Positions 1-7,687 of a stretch of DNA of 7,687 nt are shown one piece after another. Within the stretch, counting starts at the first letter, position 1, and each line of letters begins with the position of its first letter. The notes beneath the pieces were generated by a model, which saw nothing but the letters and a program-made list of their open reading frames with translations, was not told the origin of the DNA and made no database searches. The translations under genes were made by a program, and so were the position numbers. This DNA comes from Naegleria gruberi (Eukaryota): the NCBI GenBank assembly GCA_000004985.1, contig GG739118.1; one strand, written 5' to 3'.

Positions 1-998
1 TTGTTGCATGATATTAAAAGTACTGTCAGCCAATCCACAAGCATTAGAAGTGGTTTTGTAACGGAGTGAAACCTTGTAACGACCTCTTCTCAGAGTTAAG
101 GTTGCTCCAAAGTCAAACCACCAAACAGAACTCAGTTTGATAATCTTTCCAAATACACTGCTTGATGACTTTTTGGTTTTCCAATAATTTTCATTCAACC
201 AAATGATATAACTTCCATTCAACTTTCTTCCCCAACTAAGCTTATCTCTTCTGTCATAGTACAGCTTCAACAAGTCAATTTTCTTACAATGTTTTAAATT
301 TCTTTGAGATTCCTGATAGTACATTTCTGGTAATGTTATACACTGAGATTCAATGAGCTTGATAAGAAAATCTCTCGAGGAAATCAACTCTCTCATTATC
401 TTACAAGTTTGATAGCAAGTATTCAAATCTTTCACATGGAGATAGGACAAGATATTTTGCCAATTGTAAGCTCCCAATACAGAAATCATTTCAAGTTTCG
501 AACTGATAAACTTTTCAACAATTGGCTCCACATCTTCAATATATTCATTCGTAAGTTTCTCATTCATCCACTCTTCATCTTTTCCCAAATGTGAAAATTC
601 CAATCGTCCATCAATTTCAACAAAATTCCATCCTCTATGTTCAATATCTTGATGTATTTTCCATTCCAATTTGAAAAGCTGTTCATTCTGTACATCTCCC
701 TTACAGGCAGCAAAACAAATTCTTCTAAATTGTTTACCTTTCTTTACAATGAAACTAATCTTTCCTGAAGAACCTTCCATTCCCTCAAAAGAACCTCTAT
801 TCAATGAGACTTCTCCATAGAATGGATGAATTTCCTTAACTACTCCCTTCTTCATTATCAAATTGTTCTCATCCCTTGGTTTTCCTTTTATAATTAATTG
901 TTCAATTTTCTCATCATTTTGATCATCATCAAACTGGTGATTATTAATTAATGATGATGAAAATACAAAATAGCCTTCATATATTTCTTCCTCTTCTT
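1..998 (-). CDS. F-box domain protein. It is partial: the C-terminus runs past the window start, and the N-terminal exon(s) are presumed to lie in the N gap
   Basis: The reverse-strand frame, with codons ending at +999, 996, ..., 3, is open for 333 codons from +999 to +1. Its translation is ...EEEEEIYEGYFVFSSSLINNHQFDDDQNDEKIEQLIIKGKPRDENNLIMKKGVVKEIHPFYGEVSLNRGSFEGMEGSSGKISFIVKKGKQFRRICFAACKGDVQNEQLFKLEWKIHQDIEHRGWNFVEIDGRLEFSHLGKDEEWMNEKLTNEYIEDVEPIVEKFISSKLEMISVLGAYNWQNILSYLHVKDLNTCYQTCKIMRELISSRDFLIKLIESQCITLPEMYYQESQRNLKHCKKIDLLKLYYDRRDKLSWGRKLNGSYIIWLNENYWKTKKSSSSVFGKIIKLSSVWWFDFGATLTLRRGRYKVSLRYKTTSNACGLADSTFNIMQQ. No ORF this long appears in any other frame of this AT-rich flank. An in-frame TAA at +1002..1000 sits immediately 5' of a possible acceptor (cttatttaag|aag on the minus strand). 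The first in-frame ATG is at +855..853, so a conservative CDS would be 1..855. The 48 open codons upstream of that ATG suggest a spliced upstream exon instead. Confidence 0.8.
349..486 (-). other. Segment encoding the F-box motif
   Basis: The translated stretch MISVLGAYNWQNILSYLHVKDLNTCYQTCKIMRELISSRDFLIKLIE matches the canonical F-box pattern (xxILSYLxxKDLxxCxxVCKxWxxLISxxxLWKKLIE) nearly position by position. This is pattern recognition from the translation, not a database search. Confidence 0.7.
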
Positions 999-1018
999 CT
1001 TAAATAAGCTTGTTGTCT

Positions 1019-4000
1019 NNNNNNNNNNNNNNNNNNNNNNNNNNNNNNNNNNNNNNNNNNNNNNNNNNNNNNNNNNNNNNNNNNNNNNNNNNNNNNNNNN
1101 NNNNNNNNNNNNNNNNNNNNNNNNNNNNNNNNNNNNNNNNNNNNNNNNNNNNNNNNNNNNNNNNNNNNNNNNNNNNNNNNNNNNNNNNNNNNNNNNNNNN
1201 NNNNNNNNNNNNNNNNNNNNNNNNNNNNNNNNNNNNNNNNNNNNNNNNNNNNNNNNNNNNNNNNNNNNNNNNNNNNNNNNNNNNNNNNNNNNNNNNNNNN
1301 NNNNNNNNNNNNNNNNNNNNNNNNNNNNNNNNNNNNNNNNNNNNNNNNNNNNNNNNNNNNNNNNNNNNNNNNNNNNNNNNNNNNNNNNNNNNNNNNNNNN
1401 NNNNNNNNNNNNNNNNNNNNNNNNNNNNNNNNNNNNNNNNNNNNNNNNNNNNNNNNNNNNNNNNNNNNNNNNNNNNNNNNNNNNNNNNNNNNNNNNNNNN
1501 NNNNNNNNNNNNNNNNNNNNNNNNNNNNNNNNNNNNNNNNNNNNNNNNNNNNNNNNNNNNNNNNNNNNNNNNNNNNNNNNNNNNNNNNNNNNNNNNNNNN
1601 NNNNNNNNNNNNNNNNNNNNNNNNNNNNNNNNNNNNNNNNNNNNNNNNNNNNNNNNNNNNNNNNNNNNNNNNNNNNNNNNNNNNNNNNNNNNNNNNNNNN
1701 NNNNNNNNNNNNNNNNNNNNNNNNNNNNNNNNNNNNNNNNNNNNNNNNNNNNNNNNNNNNNNNNNNNNNNNNNNNNNNNNNNNNNNNNNNNNNNNNNNNN
1801 NNNNNNNNNNNNNNNNNNNNNNNNNNNNNNNNNNNNNNNNNNNNNNNNNNNNNNNNNNNNNNNNNNNNNNNNNNNNNNNNNNNNNNNNNNNNNNNNNNNN
1901 NNNNNNNNNNNNNNNNNNNNNNNNNNNNNNNNNNNNNNNNNNNNNNNNNNNNNNNNNNNNNNNNNNNNNNNNNNNNNNNNNNNNNNNNNNNNNNNNNNNN
2001 NNNNNNNNNNNNNNNNNNNNNNNNNNNNNNNNNNNNNNNNNNNNNNNNNNNNNNNNNNNNNNNNNNNNNNNNNNNNNNNNNNNNNNNNNNNNNNNNNNNN
2101 NNNNNNNNNNNNNNNNNNNNNNNNNNNNNNNNNNNNNNNNNNNNNNNNNNNNNNNNNNNNNNNNNNNNNNNNNNNNNNNNNNNNNNNNNNNNNNNNNNNN
2201 NNNNNNNNNNNNNNNNNNNNNNNNNNNNNNNNNNNNNNNNNNNNNNNNNNNNNNNNNNNNNNNNNNNNNNNNNNNNNNNNNNNNNNNNNNNNNNNNNNNN
2301 NNNNNNNNNNNNNNNNNNNNNNNNNNNNNNNNNNNNNNNNNNNNNNNNNNNNNNNNNNNNNNNNNNNNNNNNNNNNNNNNNNNNNNNNNNNNNNNNNNNN
2401 NNNNNNNNNNNNNNNNNNNNNNNNNNNNNNNNNNNNNNNNNNNNNNNNNNNNNNNNNNNNNNNNNNNNNNNNNNNNNNNNNNNNNNNNNNNNNNNNNNNN
2501 NNNNNNNNNNNNNNNNNNNNNNNNNNNNNNNNNNNNNNNNNNNNNNNNNNNNNNNNNNNNNNNNNNNNNNNNNNNNNNNNNNNNNNNNNNNNNNNNNNNN
2601 NNNNNNNNNNNNNNNNNNNNNNNNNNNNNNNNNNNNNNNNNNNNNNNNNNNNNNNNNNNNNNNNNNNNNNNNNNNNNNNNNNNNNNNNNNNNNNNNNNNN
2701 NNNNNNNNNNNNNNNNNNNNNNNNNNNNNNNNNNNNNNNNNNNNNNNNNNNNNNNNNNNNNNNNNNNNNNNNNNNNNNNNNNNNNNNNNNNNNNNNNNNN
2801 NNNNNNNNNNNNNNNNNNNNNNNNNNNNNNNNNNNNNNNNNNNNNNNNNNNNNNNNNNNNNNNNNNNNNNNNNNNNNNNNNNNNNNNNNNNNNNNNNNNN
2901 NNNNNNNNNNNNNNNNNNNNNNNNNNNNNNNNNNNNNNNNNNNNNNNNNNNNNNNNNNNNNNNNNNNNNNNNNNNNNNNNNNNNNNNNNNNNNNNNNNNN
3001 NNNNNNNNNNNNNNNNNNNNNNNNNNNNNNNNNNNNNNNNNNNNNNNNNNNNNNNNNNNNNNNNNNNNNNNNNNNNNNNNNNNNNNNNNNNNNNNNNNNN
3101 NNNNNNNNNNNNNNNNNNNNNNNNNNNNNNNNNNNNNNNNNNNNNNNNNNNNNNNNNNNNNNNNNNNNNNNNNNNNNNNNNNNNNNNNNNNNNNNNNNNN
3201 NNNNNNNNNNNNNNNNNNNNNNNNNNNNNNNNNNNNNNNNNNNNNNNNNNNNNNNNNNNNNNNNNNNNNNNNNNNNNNNNNNNNNNNNNNNNNNNNNNNN
3301 NNNNNNNNNNNNNNNNNNNNNNNNNNNNNNNNNNNNNNNNNNNNNNNNNNNNNNNNNNNNNNNNNNNNNNNNNNNNNNNNNNNNNNNNNNNNNNNNNNNN
3401 NNNNNNNNNNNNNNNNNNNNNNNNNNNNNNNNNNNNNNNNNNNNNNNNNNNNNNNNNNNNNNNNNNNNNNNNNNNNNNNNNNNNNNNNNNNNNNNNNNNN
3501 NNNNNNNNNNNNNNNNNNNNNNNNNNNNNNNNNNNNNNNNNNNNNNNNNNNNNNNNNNNNNNNNNNNNNNNNNNNNNNNNNNNNNNNNNNNNNNNNNNNN
3601 NNNNNNNNNNNNNNNNNNNNNNNNNNNNNNNNNNNNNNNNNNNNNNNNNNNNNNNNNNNNNNNNNNNNNNNNNNNNNNNNNNNNNNNNNNNNNNNNNNNN
3701 NNNNNNNNNNNNNNNNNNNNNNNNNNNNNNNNNNNNNNNNNNNNNNNNNNNNNNNNNNNNNNNNNNNNNNNNNNNNNNNNNNNNNNNNNNNNNNNNNNNN
3801 NNNNNNNNNNNNNNNNNNNNNNNNNNNNNNNNNNNNNNNNNNNNNNNNNNNNNNNNNNNNNNNNNNNNNNNNNNNNNNNNNNNNNNNNNNNNNNNNNNNN
3901 NNNNNNNNNNNNNNNNNNNNNNNNNNNNNNNNNNNNNNNNNNNNNNNNNNNNNNNNNNNNNNNNNNNNNNNNNNNNNNNNNNNNNNNNNNNNNNNNNNNN

Positions 4001-6414
4001 NNNNNNNNNNNNNNNNNNNNNNNNNNNNNNNNNNNNNNNNNNNNNNNNNNNNNNNNNNNNNNNNNNNNNNNNNNNNNNNNNNNNNNNNNNNNNNNNNNNN
4101 NNNNNNNNNNNNNNNNNNNNNNNNNNNNNNNNNNNNNNNNNNNNNNNNNNNNNNNNNNNNNNNNNNNNNNNNNNNNNNNNNNNNNNNNNNNNNNNNNNNN
4201 NNNNNNNNNNNNNNNNNNNNNNNNNNNNNNNNNNNNNNNNNNNNNNNNNNNNNNNNNNNNNNNNNNNNNNNNNNNNNNNNNNNNNNNNNNNNNNNNNNNN
4301 NNNNNNNNNNNNNNNNNNNNNNNNNNNNNNNNNNNNNNNNNNNNNNNNNNNNNNNNNNNNNNNNNNNNNNNNNNNNNNNNNNNNNNNNNNNNNNNNNNNN
4401 NNNNNNNNNNNNNNNNNNNNNNNNNNNNNNNNNNNNNNNNNNNNNNNNNNNNNNNNNNNNNNNNNNNNNNNNNNNNNNNNNNNNNNNNNNNNNNNNNNNN
4501 NNNNNNNNNNNNNNNNNNNNNNNNNNNNNNNNNNNNNNNNNNNNNNNNNNNNNNNNNNNNNNNNNNNNNNNNNNNNNNNNNNNNNNNNNNNNNNNNNNNN
4601 NNNNNNNNNNNNNNNNNNNNNNNNNNNNNNNNNNNNNNNNNNNNNNNNNNNNNNNNNNNNNNNNNNNNNNNNNNNNNNNNNNNNNNNNNNNNNNNNNNNN
4701 NNNNNNNNNNNNNNNNNNNNNNNNNNNNNNNNNNNNNNNNNNNNNNNNNNNNNNNNNNNNNNNNNNNNNNNNNNNNNNNNNNNNNNNNNNNNNNNNNNNN
4801 NNNNNNNNNNNNNNNNNNNNNNNNNNNNNNNNNNNNNNNNNNNNNNNNNNNNNNNNNNNNNNNNNNNNNNNNNNNNNNNNNNNNNNNNNNNNNNNNNNNN
4901 NNNNNNNNNNNNNNNNNNNNNNNNNNNNNNNNNNNNNNNNNNNNNNNNNNNNNNNNNNNNNNNNNNNNNNNNNNNNNNNNNNNNNNNNNNNNNNNNNNNN
5001 NNNNNNNNNNNNNNNNNNNNNNNNNNNNNNNNNNNNNNNNNNNNNNNNNNNNNNNNNNNNNNNNNNNNNNNNNNNNNNNNNNNNNNNNNNNNNNNNNNNN
5101 NNNNNNNNNNNNNNNNNNNNNNNNNNNNNNNNNNNNNNNNNNNNNNNNNNNNNNNNNNNNNNNNNNNNNNNNNNNNNNNNNNNNNNNNNNNNNNNNNNNN
5201 NNNNNNNNNNNNNNNNNNNNNNNNNNNNNNNNNNNNNNNNNNNNNNNNNNNNNNNNNNNNNNNNNNNNNNNNNNNNNNNNNNNNNNNNNNNNNNNNNNNN
5301 NNNNNNNNNNNNNNNNNNNNNNNNNNNNNNNNNNNNNNNNNNNNNNNNNNNNNNNNNNNNNNNNNNNNNNNNNNNNNNNNNNNNNNNNNNNNNNNNNNNN
5401 NNNNNNNNNNNNNNNNNNNNNNNNNNNNNNNNNNNNNNNNNNNNNNNNNNNNNNNNNNNNNNNNNNNNNNNNNNNNNNNNNNNNNNNNNNNNNNNNNNNN
5501 NNNNNNNNNNNNNNNNNNNNNNNNNNNNNNNNNNNNNNNNNNNNNNNNNNNNNNNNNNNNNNNNNNNNNNNNNNNNNNNNNNNNNNNNNNNNNNNNNNNN
5601 NNNNNNNNNNNNNNNNNNNNNNNNNNNNNNNNNNNNNNNNNNNNNNNNNNNNNNNNNNNNNNNNNNNNNNNNNNNNNNNNNNNNNNNNNNNNNNNNNNNN
5701 NNNNNNNNNNNNNNNNNNNNNNNNNNNNNNNNNNNNNNNNNNNNNNNNNNNNNNNNNNNNNNNNNNNNNNNNNNNNNNNNNNNNNNNNNNNNNNNNNNNN
5801 NNNNNNNNNNNNNNNNNNNNNNNNNNNNNNNNNNNNNNNNNNNNNNNNNNNNNNNNNNNNNNNNNNNNNNNNNNNNNNNNNNNNNNNNNNNNNNNNNNNN
5901 NNNNNNNNNNNNNNNNNNNNNNNNNNNNNNNNNNNNNNNNNNNNNNNNNNNNNNNNNNNNNNNNNNNNNNNNNNNNNNNNNNNNNNNNNNNNNNNNNNNN
6001 NNNNNNNNNNNNNNNNNNNNNNNNNNNNNNNNNNNNNNNNNNNNNNNNNNNNNNNNNNNNNNNNNNNNNNNNNNNNNNNNNNNNNNNNNNNNNNNNNNNN
6101 NNNNNNNNNNNNNNNNNNNNNNNNNNNNNNNNNNNNNNNNNNNNNNNNNNNNNNNNNNNNNNNNNNNNNNNNNNNNNNNNNNNNNNNNNNNNNNNNNNNN
6201 NNNNNNNNNNNNNNNNNNNNNNNNNNNNNNNNNNNNNNNNNNNNNNNNNNNNNNNNNNNNNNNNNNNNNNNNNNNNNNNNNNNNNNNNNNNNNNNNNNNN
6301 NNNNNNNNNNNNNNNNNNNNNNNNNNNNNNNNNNNNNNNNNNNNNNNNNNNNNNNNNNNNNNNNNNNNNNNNNNNNNNNNNNNNNNNNNNNNNNNNNNNN
6401 NNNNNNNNNNNNNN
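1019..6414. other. Assembly gap: a 5,396-nt run of N
   Basis: Uninterrupted N from 1019 to 6414. The non-round length suggests an estimated gap size in a scaffolded draft assembly. Confidence 0.99.
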
Positions 6415-7273
6415 TTTAAGTGATTTTCAGTCTGTTATGGACAAGTATACAAACAATCATGGTAAACCTTTGAAAATGATTGCAAAAGATTACAATGATT
6501 GTTCAGCAGATCATTTTTTGGAATTCGTGGTTTTTAGTTGCCCAATTATGTATGATTTTCTTATTAATAATAAGAATCACTGTGATGTTTCATTCAGTTT
6601 GAAGAAGAAACATATAATATGTTGGTCAAATCACGTAGAATACGTACTTTCTTTGATTCAAGATTTGGTTTCACCTTCAAATATTGAAATTGCAAAATTG
6701 AAACATTTCAATTTCAGGAAACAAGTCATTTCCCTATATGGTAATGGTAATTTTACAAATCCTAATTTTCATTGGAATTCTCATATTTTTGAAGATTGTT
6801 TGAAGTGGGGAAATGCCAGGTTCTTCTGGGCATTGCTTTTTGAATTGAAACACAAAGTTTTCAAACAATTTAATGACTCTTCCAATCACAAAAATTTAGA
6901 ACAACGAGGAGCGAATTTTGAAAAACTTCAAAGACAAATTAACATCAATTATCCTTGGGTAAGAAATCAATCTGAAAACAAGAAATGGATTCCAATTGTA
7001 CAAAACAAAGAATTTATTTTATTTAAGGCAAAGGATGGTTCCTTACTTGTTGGTCAATTTGTTGAGGTTAAAGAGCAAAGAGTATATTTCACCAACATCA
7101 AAAAGTGTCTCTCTTCGGTTCATCCAATTATTGGATATAGATTAATTGATTCAAACATTCATGTAACAACAGGCTATGTTGCACTAAATCAAATAATTGG
7201 TAAATGTTTGATTCATAATATTGCTGGCAAAGAAATGTTCAACCAATACTCGTTTTTCATGAATTTCCATAAA
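6415..7273 (+). CDS. Upstream exon of a kinase-like gene. It is open to the gap at its 5' end (in-frame ATG candidate at 6437). An N-terminal region of unknown function is followed by a degenerate kinase N-lobe. The unspliced ORF would continue to the TAA at 7283-7285.
   Basis: A 290-codon open frame (6416-7285, frame 2) with no stop, in AT-rich DNA where the other frames are riddled with stops. Its C-terminal ~90 residues (KWIPIVQNKEFILFKAKDGSLLVGQFVEVKEQRVYFTNIKKCLSSVHPIIGYRLIDSNIHVTTGYVALNQIIGKCLIHNIAGKEMFNQYSFFMNFHK) resemble a kinase N-lobe: a 'WIP...F' lead-in, 'VEVK' as a candidate beta3 lysine, an 'HPIIGY' beta4-like segment and an 'LIHNIAGKEMFNQY' hinge-like segment. The GxGxxG glycine loop is absent. 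The end at 7273 assumes the splice model described under findings. Confidence 0.65.
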
Positions 7274-7403
7274 GTTAAATTTTAAAAATAGAACTTTTAT
7301 TAATTTTTGGCTTTGAAGGTGTATTCAACAGCTTCCGACTACCCGCACTACCATCCGGCTGTAACCGGCTACCGGCTACACCACCAACTACATCCACTCT
7401 TAG
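7274..7403 (+). other. Putative phase-0 intron, 130 nt: weak donor aaa|GTTAAA, acceptor ccactcttAG|gtt. An alternative phase-1 intron runs 7200-7416 (strong donor GTAAAT, acceptor tttcAG).
   Basis: This interval contains the in-frame stops TAA 7283, TAG 7289 and TAA 7301, holds no ATG at all, and is bounded by GT...AG in frame-compatible positions. Under this model the spliced product puts 34 residues between the hinge-like 'FNQY' and the HRD aspartate, a normal kinase spacing. Confidence 0.35.
7331..7400 (+). repeat. GC-rich island with short direct repeats: five copies of CTAC and three of CCGGCT
   Basis: The sequence gcttccgaCTACccgcaCTACcatCCGGCTgtaaCCGGCTaCCGGCTACaccaccaaCTACatccactc is roughly 55% GC, inside DNA that is otherwise about 30% GC. 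It lies within the putative intron and is immediately followed by a pyrimidine tract and AG. Confidence 0.4.
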
Positions 7404-7687
7404 GTTGTAATTTCAGCTGGAATACAATTAGTTCAAGCTTTGAAAGATATTCACATGAAAATGAGTCTTATCCACAGAGATATAAAGTTAGATAACATTG
7501 CTCTCGATCAAGTGGTAGTTGAAAATAATGAAATTCAAAGCGCAATCATCAAGGTTATTGATTTTGAAAGTGCTGTTTCTATTCAAAATCAGGGAGCTCT
7601 TGAAGAAGAAATGTATCATGTCACTGAAAGTTATCGATGCCCAGATGATATACTACTTTCCACCAAGAGCGAGATTTATGCTCTTGG
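7404..7687 (+). CDS. Exon encoding a protein kinase catalytic core, subdomains VIa to IX. It is partial: the 3' end lies beyond the window. Under the alternative acceptor the exon would start at 7417.
   Basis: Frame 3 translation: VVISAGIQLVQALKDIHMKMSLIHRDIKLDNIALDQVVVENNEIQSAIIKVIDFESAVSIQNQGALEEEMYHVTESYRCPDDILLSTKSEIYALG. It contains the catalytic loop HRDIKLDN (7473-7496), DFE at the DFG position (7560-7568), YRCPDD at the APE position, and SEIYALG resembling the subdomain-IX D-x-W-S-x-G motif. The frame is closed upstream by TAG at 7401-7403, and there is no ATG anywhere in 7286-7416. Confidence 0.85.

What the first reader, a model, noticed from the sequence alone, without database searches (positions are those of the whole stretch)
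7080..7687. A divergent or possibly pseudo-kinase: no glycine-rich loop, DFG changed to DFE, APE changed to CPD, yet the HRD..K..DN catalytic loop is intact
The catalytic loop HRDIKLDN keeps the catalytic Asp, Lys and Asn. The N-lobe candidate (KWIPIVQNKEFILFKAKDGSLLVGQFVEVK...) has no GxGxxG. The activation segment starts with DFE, not DFG, and ends with CPDD, not APE. Such combinations occur in lineage-expanded, rapidly evolving kinase families and in pseudokinases that retain scaffolding roles. A Glu at the DFG glycine position would be expected to stiffen the DFG flip.
Basis: partly seen in the sequence, partly recalled or inferred. Interest (0 to 1): 0.5.

Follow-up and report, generated by a model that had tools for sequence, protein, structure and literature searches.

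The report
Truncated kinase fragment beside repeat gene
The kinase motifs are real, but this is only the middle of a Naegleria gruberi kinase gene cut off next to the end of an unrelated multi-copy gene, so the "missing glycine loop" comes from joining two genes.

Summary
The window is a whole 7,687-bp Naegleria gruberi scaffold, and 70% of it is an N gap (1019-6414).

**What holds up.** HRDIKLDN (7473-7496), DFE (7560-7568) and CPDD (7638-7649) are real and in frame. They match Pfam Pkinase above its threshold. The same motifs occur in the paralogue NAEGRDRAFT_54080 and in a 98%-identical metagenome contig (L001).

**What does not.**
- That gene ends at a TAA stop at 7283-7285.
- It is one of four or more copies, over 90% identical, on different scaffolds. 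It is probably part of a mobile or repetitive element.
- This C-terminal region is predicted to be an all-beta barrel, not a kinase lobe.

**Where the kinase starts.** Kinase homology begins abruptly at 7404/7405, straight after an in-frame TAG. About 143 codons, including the whole N-lobe, are missing. The fragment also runs off the scaffold end, and its few substitutions look neutral (dN/dS about 1).

**The real N-lobe.** It is seen on L001. It keeps a beta3 lysine (LVLK) and a likely alphaC glutamate. Its Gly loop is degenerate (LADG--VYKV).

**Verdict.** This is a truncated copy of a very divergent orphan kinase gene, probably a pseudogene. It is not a full-length pseudokinase. Interest is low.

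The parts
7404..7687 (+). Kinase gene fragment of 94 codons, running from the end of helix E / subdomain VIa to subdomain IX. It is open at the scaffold end and has no start codon or N-lobe.
   Evidence: Translation. Pfam Pkinase 40.9 bits, profile 106-169. 98.2% nt identity to L001 846-1128. About 94% aa identity to P0003.
7473..7496 (+). Catalytic loop HRDIKLDN (HRD Asp, Lys, Asn all present).
   Evidence: H, D and N are invariant columns and K is nearly invariant (at least 90%) in alignment A2.
7560..7568 (+). DFE in place of DFG. The metal-binding Asp and the Phe are kept; Gly is replaced by Glu.
   Evidence: The same motif is in P0003 and L001. DFE occurs in 2 of 237 related kinase domains.
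7638..7649 (+). CPDD in place of APE(x).
   Evidence: Pro is invariant in A2. CPD occurs in 0 of 237 domains and CPN once, in P0022.
7401..7404 (+). In-frame TAG (7401-7403) and the homology breakpoint at 7404/7405. Upstream of this point nothing matches the intact kinase gene.
   Evidence: Pairwise alignment with L001. Three stops in the kinase frame within 7287-7403.
7286..7403 (+). 3' flank of the repeat ORF. It includes a C-rich block of 57-58% GC at about 7320-7400, with ACCGGCT x2.3, in a roughly 30% GC background. It may be the terminal region of the element.
   Evidence: No match to L001 or to the N. lovaniensis locus.
6416..7285 (+). Last 289 codons plus the TAA stop of a multi-copy Naegleria-specific ORF. 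The annotated gene NAEGRDRAFT_76741 covers 6548-7285. The 5' part is lost in the N gap.
   Evidence: 99% identical to P0001. Cluster of four N. gruberi proteins on four scaffolds, one of them 7,687 bp long and so this window. The N. lovaniensis homologue P0002 ends at the same place.
6947..7282 (+). C-terminal all-beta domain of the repeat ORF.
1019..6414 (.). Run of 5,396 N (assembly gap). It hides the rest of the repeat ORF and whatever lies 5' of it.

Best explanation
**Shown**
- The window is a tiny unplaced N. gruberi scaffold.
- On its right-hand contig (6415-7687), two unrelated things abut.
  - The 3' end of a multi-copy, Naegleria-specific ORF, which stops at 7285.
  - An internal piece of a protein-kinase gene, starting 118 bp downstream of that stop.
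- The kinase piece is a close copy of NAEGRDRAFT_54080.
- It begins in mid-domain at 7404/7405, directly after a stop codon. It lacks about 143 codons, including the whole N-lobe, and it runs off the scaffold end.

**Inferred**
- The break was made by insertion of, or rearrangement at, the repetitive (probably mobile) element that carries the upstream ORF.
- The fragment is a non-functional pseudogene.
  - Its four amino-acid changes relative to both other copies, against one silent change, fit neutral drift.
  - It cannot encode an ATP-binding lobe.
- The parent gene encodes a highly divergent, lineage-restricted kinase.
  - It keeps the beta3 Lys (LVLK), a likely alphaC Glu, the HRD Asp, the catalytic-loop Lys and Asn, and the DFG Asp.
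  - It has a shortened, one-glycine P-loop (LADG--VYKV), Glu at the DFG glycine position, and CPD for APE.
- If that parent protein is made, the residues needed for phosphotransfer are present. It would be an atypical kinase with a rigidified DFG and a weakened P-loop, not a classical pseudokinase.
For: **Organism and scaffold.** (P0007 sits on a contig of length 7687).

**Separate gene with its own stop.**. Four paralogues over 90% identical lie on four scaffolds. The N. lovaniensis copy is split over three frames.

**Breakpoint.**
- Window 7405-7687 aligns to L001 846-1128 at 98.2%, and nothing upstream aligns.
- TAG sits at 7401-7403, with two more stops upstream.

**True N-lobe on L001.**
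- P0042 plus the reconstruction extends the Pfam match to profile 15-257 at 78.5 bits.
- LVLK aligns to the VAIK lysine.
- The Gly loop reads LADG--VYKV.

- No Pfam hit, and no gain in score.
- BLASTP against the true N-lobe gives E=2.1.

**Drift.** Four non-synonymous and one synonymous difference, dN/dS about 1, and all four are window-specific.

**Divergence of the family.** The best foreign hit is 29% identical, and only 1,123 hits reach E<=1e-3 among 1.84e9 representatives.
Against: - The DNA of the other N. gruberi loci could not be fetched. The end of the repeat element is therefore not mapped, and insertion is not demonstrated.
- The 5' half of the kinase could lie in the 5.4-kb gap.
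- The contig is only 1,273 bp long and borders a repeat, so a chimeric read or mis-join cannot be excluded.
- The dN/dS estimate rests on 5 substitutions.
- An AG dinucleotide sits exactly at the breakpoint (cttAG|GTT). This leaves open that the upstream sequence is spliced out.
- The upstream ORF matches no transposase family, and no terminal inverted repeats were found.
Confidence: 0.78

Rival explanations
1. One reading: one gene. The upstream ORF (KWIPIVQNKEF...) supplies a Gly-loop-less N-lobe and is spliced at about 7275/7320 to 7416 onto the C-lobe, giving a full-length pseudokinase.
For: The two ORFs lie on the same strand and are 118-131 bp apart. 'tttcag' at 7411-7416 resembles an acceptor.
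Against: - The upstream ORF ends where all its paralogues and the N. lovaniensis homologue end.
- It is annotated as its own gene.
- It has no kinase HMM signal, and adding it lowers the Pkinase score.
- It has no similarity to the real N-lobe.
- It is predicted as a beta barrel with no alphaC helix.
- Kinase homology extends 12 nt upstream of the proposed acceptor, and that 'tttcag' is coding sequence in the uninterrupted copy.
Confidence: 0.02
2. The kinase gene is intact. The repeat element sits inside a large, possibly newly created intron. The N-lobe exons are hidden in the N gap, and splicing uses the AG at 7402-7403.
For: - The breakpoint is preceded by ...ccactcttAG|GTT, a plausible acceptor.
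- The 5.4-kb gap is large enough to hold the rest of the repeat ORF (about 1.35 kb of coding sequence) plus about 0.45 kb of kinase 5' coding sequence.
Against: - There is no intron at this position in L001.
- The window copy's substitutions look unconstrained.
- An AG at a given position is a 1-in-16 coincidence.
- There is no transcript evidence.
Confidence: 0.08
3. Assembly artefact: the 1,273-bp contig is a chimera or mis-join between a repeat copy and the NAEGRDRAFT_54080 locus or its allele.
For: - The scaffold is 7.7 kb and 70% N, and it is built around a multi-copy sequence.
- The kinase part is about 94% identical at protein level to a gene placed on a 196-kb scaffold.
Against: - The kinase part differs from P0003 at 5 of 93 aligned residues, so it is not simply the same locus.
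- Mis-joins normally occur inside shared repeats, not at a unique junction.
Confidence: 0.08
4. The kinase fragment is cargo: a gene fragment captured by, and now part of, the repetitive element.
For: - The fragment is internal, with no start, and sits directly at the element's 3' side.
- Partial or damaged copies of this kinase exist elsewhere: L001 carries a 7-nt frameshift deletion, and the P0003 gene model is truncated.
Against: - Only one annotated paralogue of the kinase was found, against four copies of the repeat ORF.
- L001 shows the kinase in a context without the repeat ORF.
Confidence: 0.05

Closest known systems
NAEGRDRAFT_54080 (XP_002669602.1, P0003), N. gruberi 'predicted protein' with a Pkinase domain
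   Same: About 94% identical over the 93 aligned residues. Identical HRDIKLDN, DFE and CPDD.
   Different: - P0003 continues for 527 aa, with subdomains X-XI and a long tail, and it keeps part of the N-lobe from the beta3 strand onward.
- The window copy starts at helix E and carries 4 private amino-acid changes shared by neither P0003 nor L001.
- It also differs from P0003 at one further position (ISAG against ISVG), where it agrees with L001.
Eukaryotic protein kinase superfamily (Pfam PF00069). The best solved relatives are bacterial Stk1/PknB-like kinases (4eqm) and apicomplexan CDPKs (3lij).
   Same: The fold-defining motifs of the C-lobe. The reconstructed parent scores 78.5 bits against Pkinase and E=1.5e-9 against 4eqm.
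   Different: - Only 25-30% identity to anything outside Naegleria.
- One-glycine shortened P-loop, DFE and CPD.
- It cannot be assigned to a kinase group.
Kinases and pseudokinases lacking the DFG glycine: ILK (DVK) and TRIB1 (SLE)
   Same: A non-Gly residue at the third DFG position. For ILK, the loss of Gly is thought to lock the motif in the DFG-in state (PMC4718504).
   Different: ILK and TRIB1 also lack other catalytic residues. Here the HRD Asp, the catalytic-loop Asn, the DFG Asp and (in the parent) the beta3 Lys are all present.
P0022, a metagenome protist kinase on L002
   Same: No GxGxxG (IHSSHNSVVYKV). It keeps the beta3 Lys (MILK), has HRDIKLEN and Cys-Pro in place of Ala-Pro (MCPNE), and shares the IYALG motif.
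   Different: It has a normal DFG. Identity is only about 26% overall (37% in the best stretch). The organism is unknown.
NAEGRDRAFT_51042 / 65790 / 71659 repeat-ORF family (for 6416-7285)
   Same: 99% identity and the same C-terminus.
   Different: The window copy is cut by the assembly gap. The family has no Pfam assignment.

Membership tests
Eukaryotic protein kinase (ePK, PF00069) | Pkinase HMM score above the gathering threshold | tested here: met
   Fragment: 40.9 bits against 31.7. Reconstructed parent: 78.5 bits, profile 15-257.
Eukaryotic protein kinase (ePK, PF00069) | Catalytic loop HRDxKxxN | tested here: met
   HRDIKLDN at 7473-7496.
Eukaryotic protein kinase (ePK, PF00069) | DFG motif with metal-binding Asp | tested here: met
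   Asp and Phe are present and Gly is replaced by Glu (7560-7568). DFE is seen in 2 of 237 related domains.
Eukaryotic protein kinase (ePK, PF00069) | N-lobe with beta3 (VAIK) Lys and alphaC Glu | tested here: not met
   Absent from the window: homology starts at 7405 and stops lie upstream. The lysine is present in the intact copy on L001 (LVLK aligned to vaiK). The alphaC Glu in RDEQF is only tentatively aligned.
Eukaryotic protein kinase (ePK, PF00069) | Glycine-rich loop GxGxxG | tested here: not met
   Not encoded in the window. In the intact copy the loop is LADG--VYKV, with one Gly and two residues fewer.
Pseudokinase (sequence definition: loss of beta3 Lys, HRD Asp or DFG Asp; PMC4718504) | At least one of the three catalytic residues substituted in an otherwise complete kinase domain | tested here: not met
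   All three are present in the parent. The window copy is incomplete, not substituted.
Processed or disrupted pseudogene | Truncation or stops relative to an intact homologue, plus relaxed constraint | tested here: met
   5' truncation at 7404/7405 with an in-frame TAG. dN/dS is about 1 from 5 substitutions, which is weak statistically.
DDE transposase of the CACTA/Tnp2/KDZ kind (for the upstream ORF) | Match to a transposase profile (such as PF02992 or the KDZ and Plavaka models) | tested here: not met
   No Pfam family at E<=10 for P0001, P0006 or the N. lovaniensis pieces.
DDE transposase of the CACTA/Tnp2/KDZ kind (for the upstream ORF) | Multiple near-identical dispersed copies, with degraded copies | tested here: met
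   Four copies over 90% identical on four scaffolds, some truncated. The N. lovaniensis copy is broken into three frames.
DDE transposase of the CACTA/Tnp2/KDZ kind (for the upstream ORF) | Terminal inverted repeats and target-site duplication | not testable with these tools
   The 5' end lies in the N gap. The other N. gruberi loci could not be fetched. No inverted repeat was found around the N. lovaniensis copy.
SH3-like small beta-barrel (Tudor/Sm/PWWP/BAH class) for 6947-7282 | Structural similarity of a confident model | tested here: inconclusive
   [not shown]

The most novel reading that the evidence does not exclude
The parent gene (NAEGRDRAFT_54080, or the L001 type) and the P0022-like protist kinases may form an undescribed clade. 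This clade would have given up the glycine-rich loop while keeping every catalytic side chain, so it would be a catalytically competent kinase with a non-canonical way of holding ATP phosphates. In Naegleria the DFG would additionally be locked by Glu. Separately, the upstream multi-copy ORF could be a new DNA-transposase family with a C-terminal Tudor/Sm-like barrel, whose insertion here may behave as a spliceable intron.
Probability: 0.1. Interest if true: 0.45.

Novelty: new member of a known kind. Interest (0 to 1): 0.15.

Why it matters
Mostly as a caution. In draft protist assemblies, small repeat-rich scaffolds place unrelated ORFs on the same strand within about 100 bp of each other. 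Stitching them together produces spurious 'pseudokinases'.

The residual biological points are modest:
- N. gruberi has an orphan, fast-evolving kinase gene with DFE, CPD and a one-glycine P-loop.
- Its three sampled copies all appear damaged in or near the N-lobe. For P0003 this is inferred from the protein only.
- The kinase fragment sits next to an uncharacterised, probably mobile, multi-copy ORF.

Neither point bears on a long-standing question.

Tried and rejected
- **Genomic DNA for N. gruberi genes.** Look-ups for P0001 and P0003 were not on record. The repeat element's end and the true 5' end of P0003 could therefore not be checked.
- **Word-indexed homologue searches.** The P0003 kinase domain and P0001 returned almost nothing.
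- **JGI metagenome scans.** One used the repeat-ORF protein and one a 23-mer from the GC-rich flank. Both found nothing.
- **Pfam on the repeat ORF.** Four attempts, including the N. lovaniensis pieces at E<=10, gave no family.
- **AF2 on full-length P0001.** pLDDT was 37, unusable except for the C-terminal domain.
- **AFDB50 fold library.** Unavailable.
- **Rfam and tRNA scans.** Run to explain the GC-rich block; no hits.
- **Repeat searches.** Inverted and direct repeats in 6415-7687 showed only chance-level matches. No inverted repeat was found around the N. lovaniensis copy.
- **Literature.** No paper mentions these locus tags, and no Naegleria transposon paper was relevant.
- **Transposase motifs, considered but not claimed.** The conserved stretches YIDEFRK, GLYFTLLNF, WDSVQRW...C-x2-C and VELMH in the repeat ORF recall CACTA/Tnp2/KDZ transposase motifs. 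That is from memory only and failed the profile test.
Full report
**What the window is**

Only 1-1018 and 6415-7687 are real sequence. Positions 1019-6414 are 5,396 N. GC content is about 31%. A protein search with the two right-hand ORFs joined hit Naegleria gruberi proteins at 99% and 88% identity. The cluster look-up shows that P0007 (NAEGRDRAFT_76741, 245 aa) lies on a contig of exactly 7,687 bp. Its sequence is the window ORF 6548-7285. The window is therefore an entire small, unplaced scaffold of the N. gruberi assembly.

**Checking the observation**

The + frame 7404-7685 reads VVISAGIQLVQALKDIHMKMSLIHRDIKLDNIALDQVVVENNEIQSAIIKVIDFESAVSIQNQGALEEEMYHVTESYRCPDDILLSTKSEIYAL.

- HRDIKLDN is at 7473-7496, DFE at 7560-7568 and CPDD at 7638-7649.
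- The fragment alone scores 40.9 bits against Pfam Pkinase (cut-off 31.7, E=2.1e-10, profile positions 106-169).
- The motifs are real, in frame and not chance.
- They are also not sequencing errors. The same DFE and CPDD occur in P0003 (NAEGRDRAFT_54080) and in an independent metagenome contig, L001.

**The 'N-lobe candidate' is another gene**

The ORF 6416-7285 is the last 289 codons of a protein family (P0001 645 aa, P0006 741 aa, P0005 385 aa, P0007 245 aa).

- All members end ...FFMNFHKVKF followed by a stop, exactly as in the window (TAA 7283-7285).
- The N. lovaniensis homologue P0002 (43% identical) ends at the same point.
- The family has no Pfam match.
- It has no similarity to the real N-lobe of this kinase (BLASTP E=2.1).
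- Modelled alone, residues encoded by 6947-7282 form an all-strand domain (pLDDT 73.7).

**Where the kinase really starts**

An exhaustive HMMER search with P0003 found a 109-aa protein (P0042) matching P0003's N-terminus at 88% identity. Its source is L001, a 1,299-bp ENA metagenome contig.

- Window 7405-7687 aligns to L001 846-1128 at 98.2%, and nothing upstream aligns.
- In L001 the sequence through the breakpoint is continuous coding DNA (...F-N-F-V-I-S-A-G-K-Q...).
- In the window the kinase frame has TAG at 7401-7403 and two more stops within the preceding 117 nt.
- About 143 codons of the gene, the entire N-lobe and hinge, are missing.
- The 3' part beyond subdomain IX is cut by the scaffold end.

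**The true N-lobe**

I joined P0042 to P0003, repairing a 7-nt deletion in L001 (see below). The result scores 78.5 bits against Pkinase over profile positions 15-257. It matches solved kinases at E=1.5e-9 (4eqm, 3lij).

- A profile built from 36 canonical relatives aligns ILVLK to the VAIK strand, so the beta3 lysine is present.
- MAFFT places RDEQF at the alphaC glutamate column. This placement is tentative, because the HMM treats the region as an insertion.
- MAFFT also aligns LADG--VYKV to GxGxxGxV. That gives one glycine and a loop two residues shorter.
- The standard pseudokinase criterion is loss of the beta3 Lys, the HRD Asp or the DFG Asp (PMC4718504). By that criterion the parent is not a pseudokinase.
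- The same review notes that loss of the DFG glycine in ILK (DVK) probably locks DFG-in, and that TRIB1 has SLE. A Glu at this position is unusual but not unprecedented.
- Among 237 kinase domains in the 149 best hits, the DFG columns read DFG 186 times, DFD 8 times and DFE 2 times.
- In the same set the APE columns read APE or SPE 207 times, CPN once (P0022) and CPD never.

**How divergent the gene is, and its state**

In 1.84 billion representatives the best foreign hit is 29% identical (E=6.7e-14). Only 1,123 proteins reach E<=1e-3. This is an orphan, fast-evolving kinase.

The nearest look-alike is P0022, on a 38% GC metagenome contig (L002). It also lacks GxGxxG (IHSSHNSVVYKV), keeps the lysine (MILK), and has HRDIKLEN, DFG, MCPNE and IYALG.

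All three sampled copies of the Naegleria gene look damaged.

- **The window copy** is truncated. It differs from L001 at 5 nucleotides, 4 non-synonymous and 1 synonymous. With 223 non-synonymous and 56 synonymous sites, dN/dS is about 1.0. All four amino-acid changes are private to the window.
- **L001** lacks 7 nt after ...QFEH, which shifts the frame. It also lacks 8 codons further on.
- **The P0003 model** starts MKFMVLKY where L001 reads DEILVLKY. This needs a 1-nt indel and puts the upstream N-lobe out of frame. That is an inference from protein sequence only, because no DNA was available.

**The upstream ORF and the junction**

- Four copies over 90% identical lie on four scaffolds, with truncated versions among them.
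- A copy in N. lovaniensis is broken across frames +3, +2 and +3.
- These features point to a repetitive, probably mobile, element.
- It matches no transposase profile, and no terminal inverted repeats were seen. That classification therefore stays an inference.
- Between its stop and the breakpoint lies a C-rich block of 57-58% GC (about 7320-7400) with ACCGGCT x2.3. It might be the element's terminal region.
- I could not obtain the other N. gruberi loci or metagenomic copies to map the element's end.

**Explanation and rivals**

- **Best (0.78).** This is a 5'- and 3'-truncated, non-functional copy of a divergent kinase gene, abutting the 3' end of a repeat ORF. Insertion or rearrangement by that element is the most likely cause, but this is not shown.
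- **Rivals.**
  - The element lies in a large intron, with N-lobe exons hidden in the gap. An AG sits exactly at 7402-7403, but L001 has no intron there and the copy evolves neutrally (0.08).
  - Assembly chimera (0.08).
  - Gene-fragment capture by the element (0.05).

**Verdict**

The motif observation is correct, but the gene model and the pseudokinase reading are not. What remains is an ordinary truncated gene fragment from an unusual but minor orphan kinase family. Interest is low, at 0.15.

Noticed in passing
window 1-999, minus strand: A 333-codon ORF, open at the scaffold's left end, with an F-box (residues about 180-213) and a phloem-protein-2 (PP2) lectin-like domain (residues 265-328). 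The Pfam PP2 match is E=3.2e-7 and the F-box match E=2.5e-4. It has no Met near its 5' end, so the start may lie in the gap.
   Followed up: partly
window 1019-6414: 70% of the scaffold is a single run of 5,396 N. Any statement about what lies between the F-box gene and the repeat ORF is untestable from this assembly.
   Followed up: yes
window 7320-7400: A C-rich block of 57-58% GC with ACCGGCT x2.3, in a roughly 30% GC genome, immediately before the kinase breakpoint. It has no Rfam or tRNA match. It may be a subterminal repeat of the upstream element.
   Followed up: partly
[not shown]
   Followed up: partly
P0006 / P0001 and L003 6777-8921: The repeat ORF is conserved between N. gruberi and N. 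lovaniensis at 35-43% identity. Strongly conserved stretches are Y(I/F)DE(F/Y)RK, G(L/F)Y..LLN, GPW(I/V)WDSVQRW..LFLE followed by C-x2-C, and STVE.MH..IQG. From memory these recall CACTA/Tnp2/KDZ DDE transposases, but no profile match was obtained. The N. lovaniensis copy needs two frameshifts.
   Followed up: partly
L001 720-735 and 1235-1250: The metagenome copy of the kinase gene has a 7-nt deletion between two CACA repeats, which shifts the frame after ...QFEH. It also lacks 8 codons (NTRLHRTI region) relative to P0003. It too looks like a decaying copy.
   Followed up: partly
L002 2016-3176: On the same metagenome contig as P0022, a second ORF of 386 aa has a degenerate kinase-like core (HGNLKSSNIVL instead of HRDxKxxN, VDHLG instead of DFG). 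The two appear to be tandem divergent kinase and pseudokinase genes in an unidentified protist.
   Followed up: no
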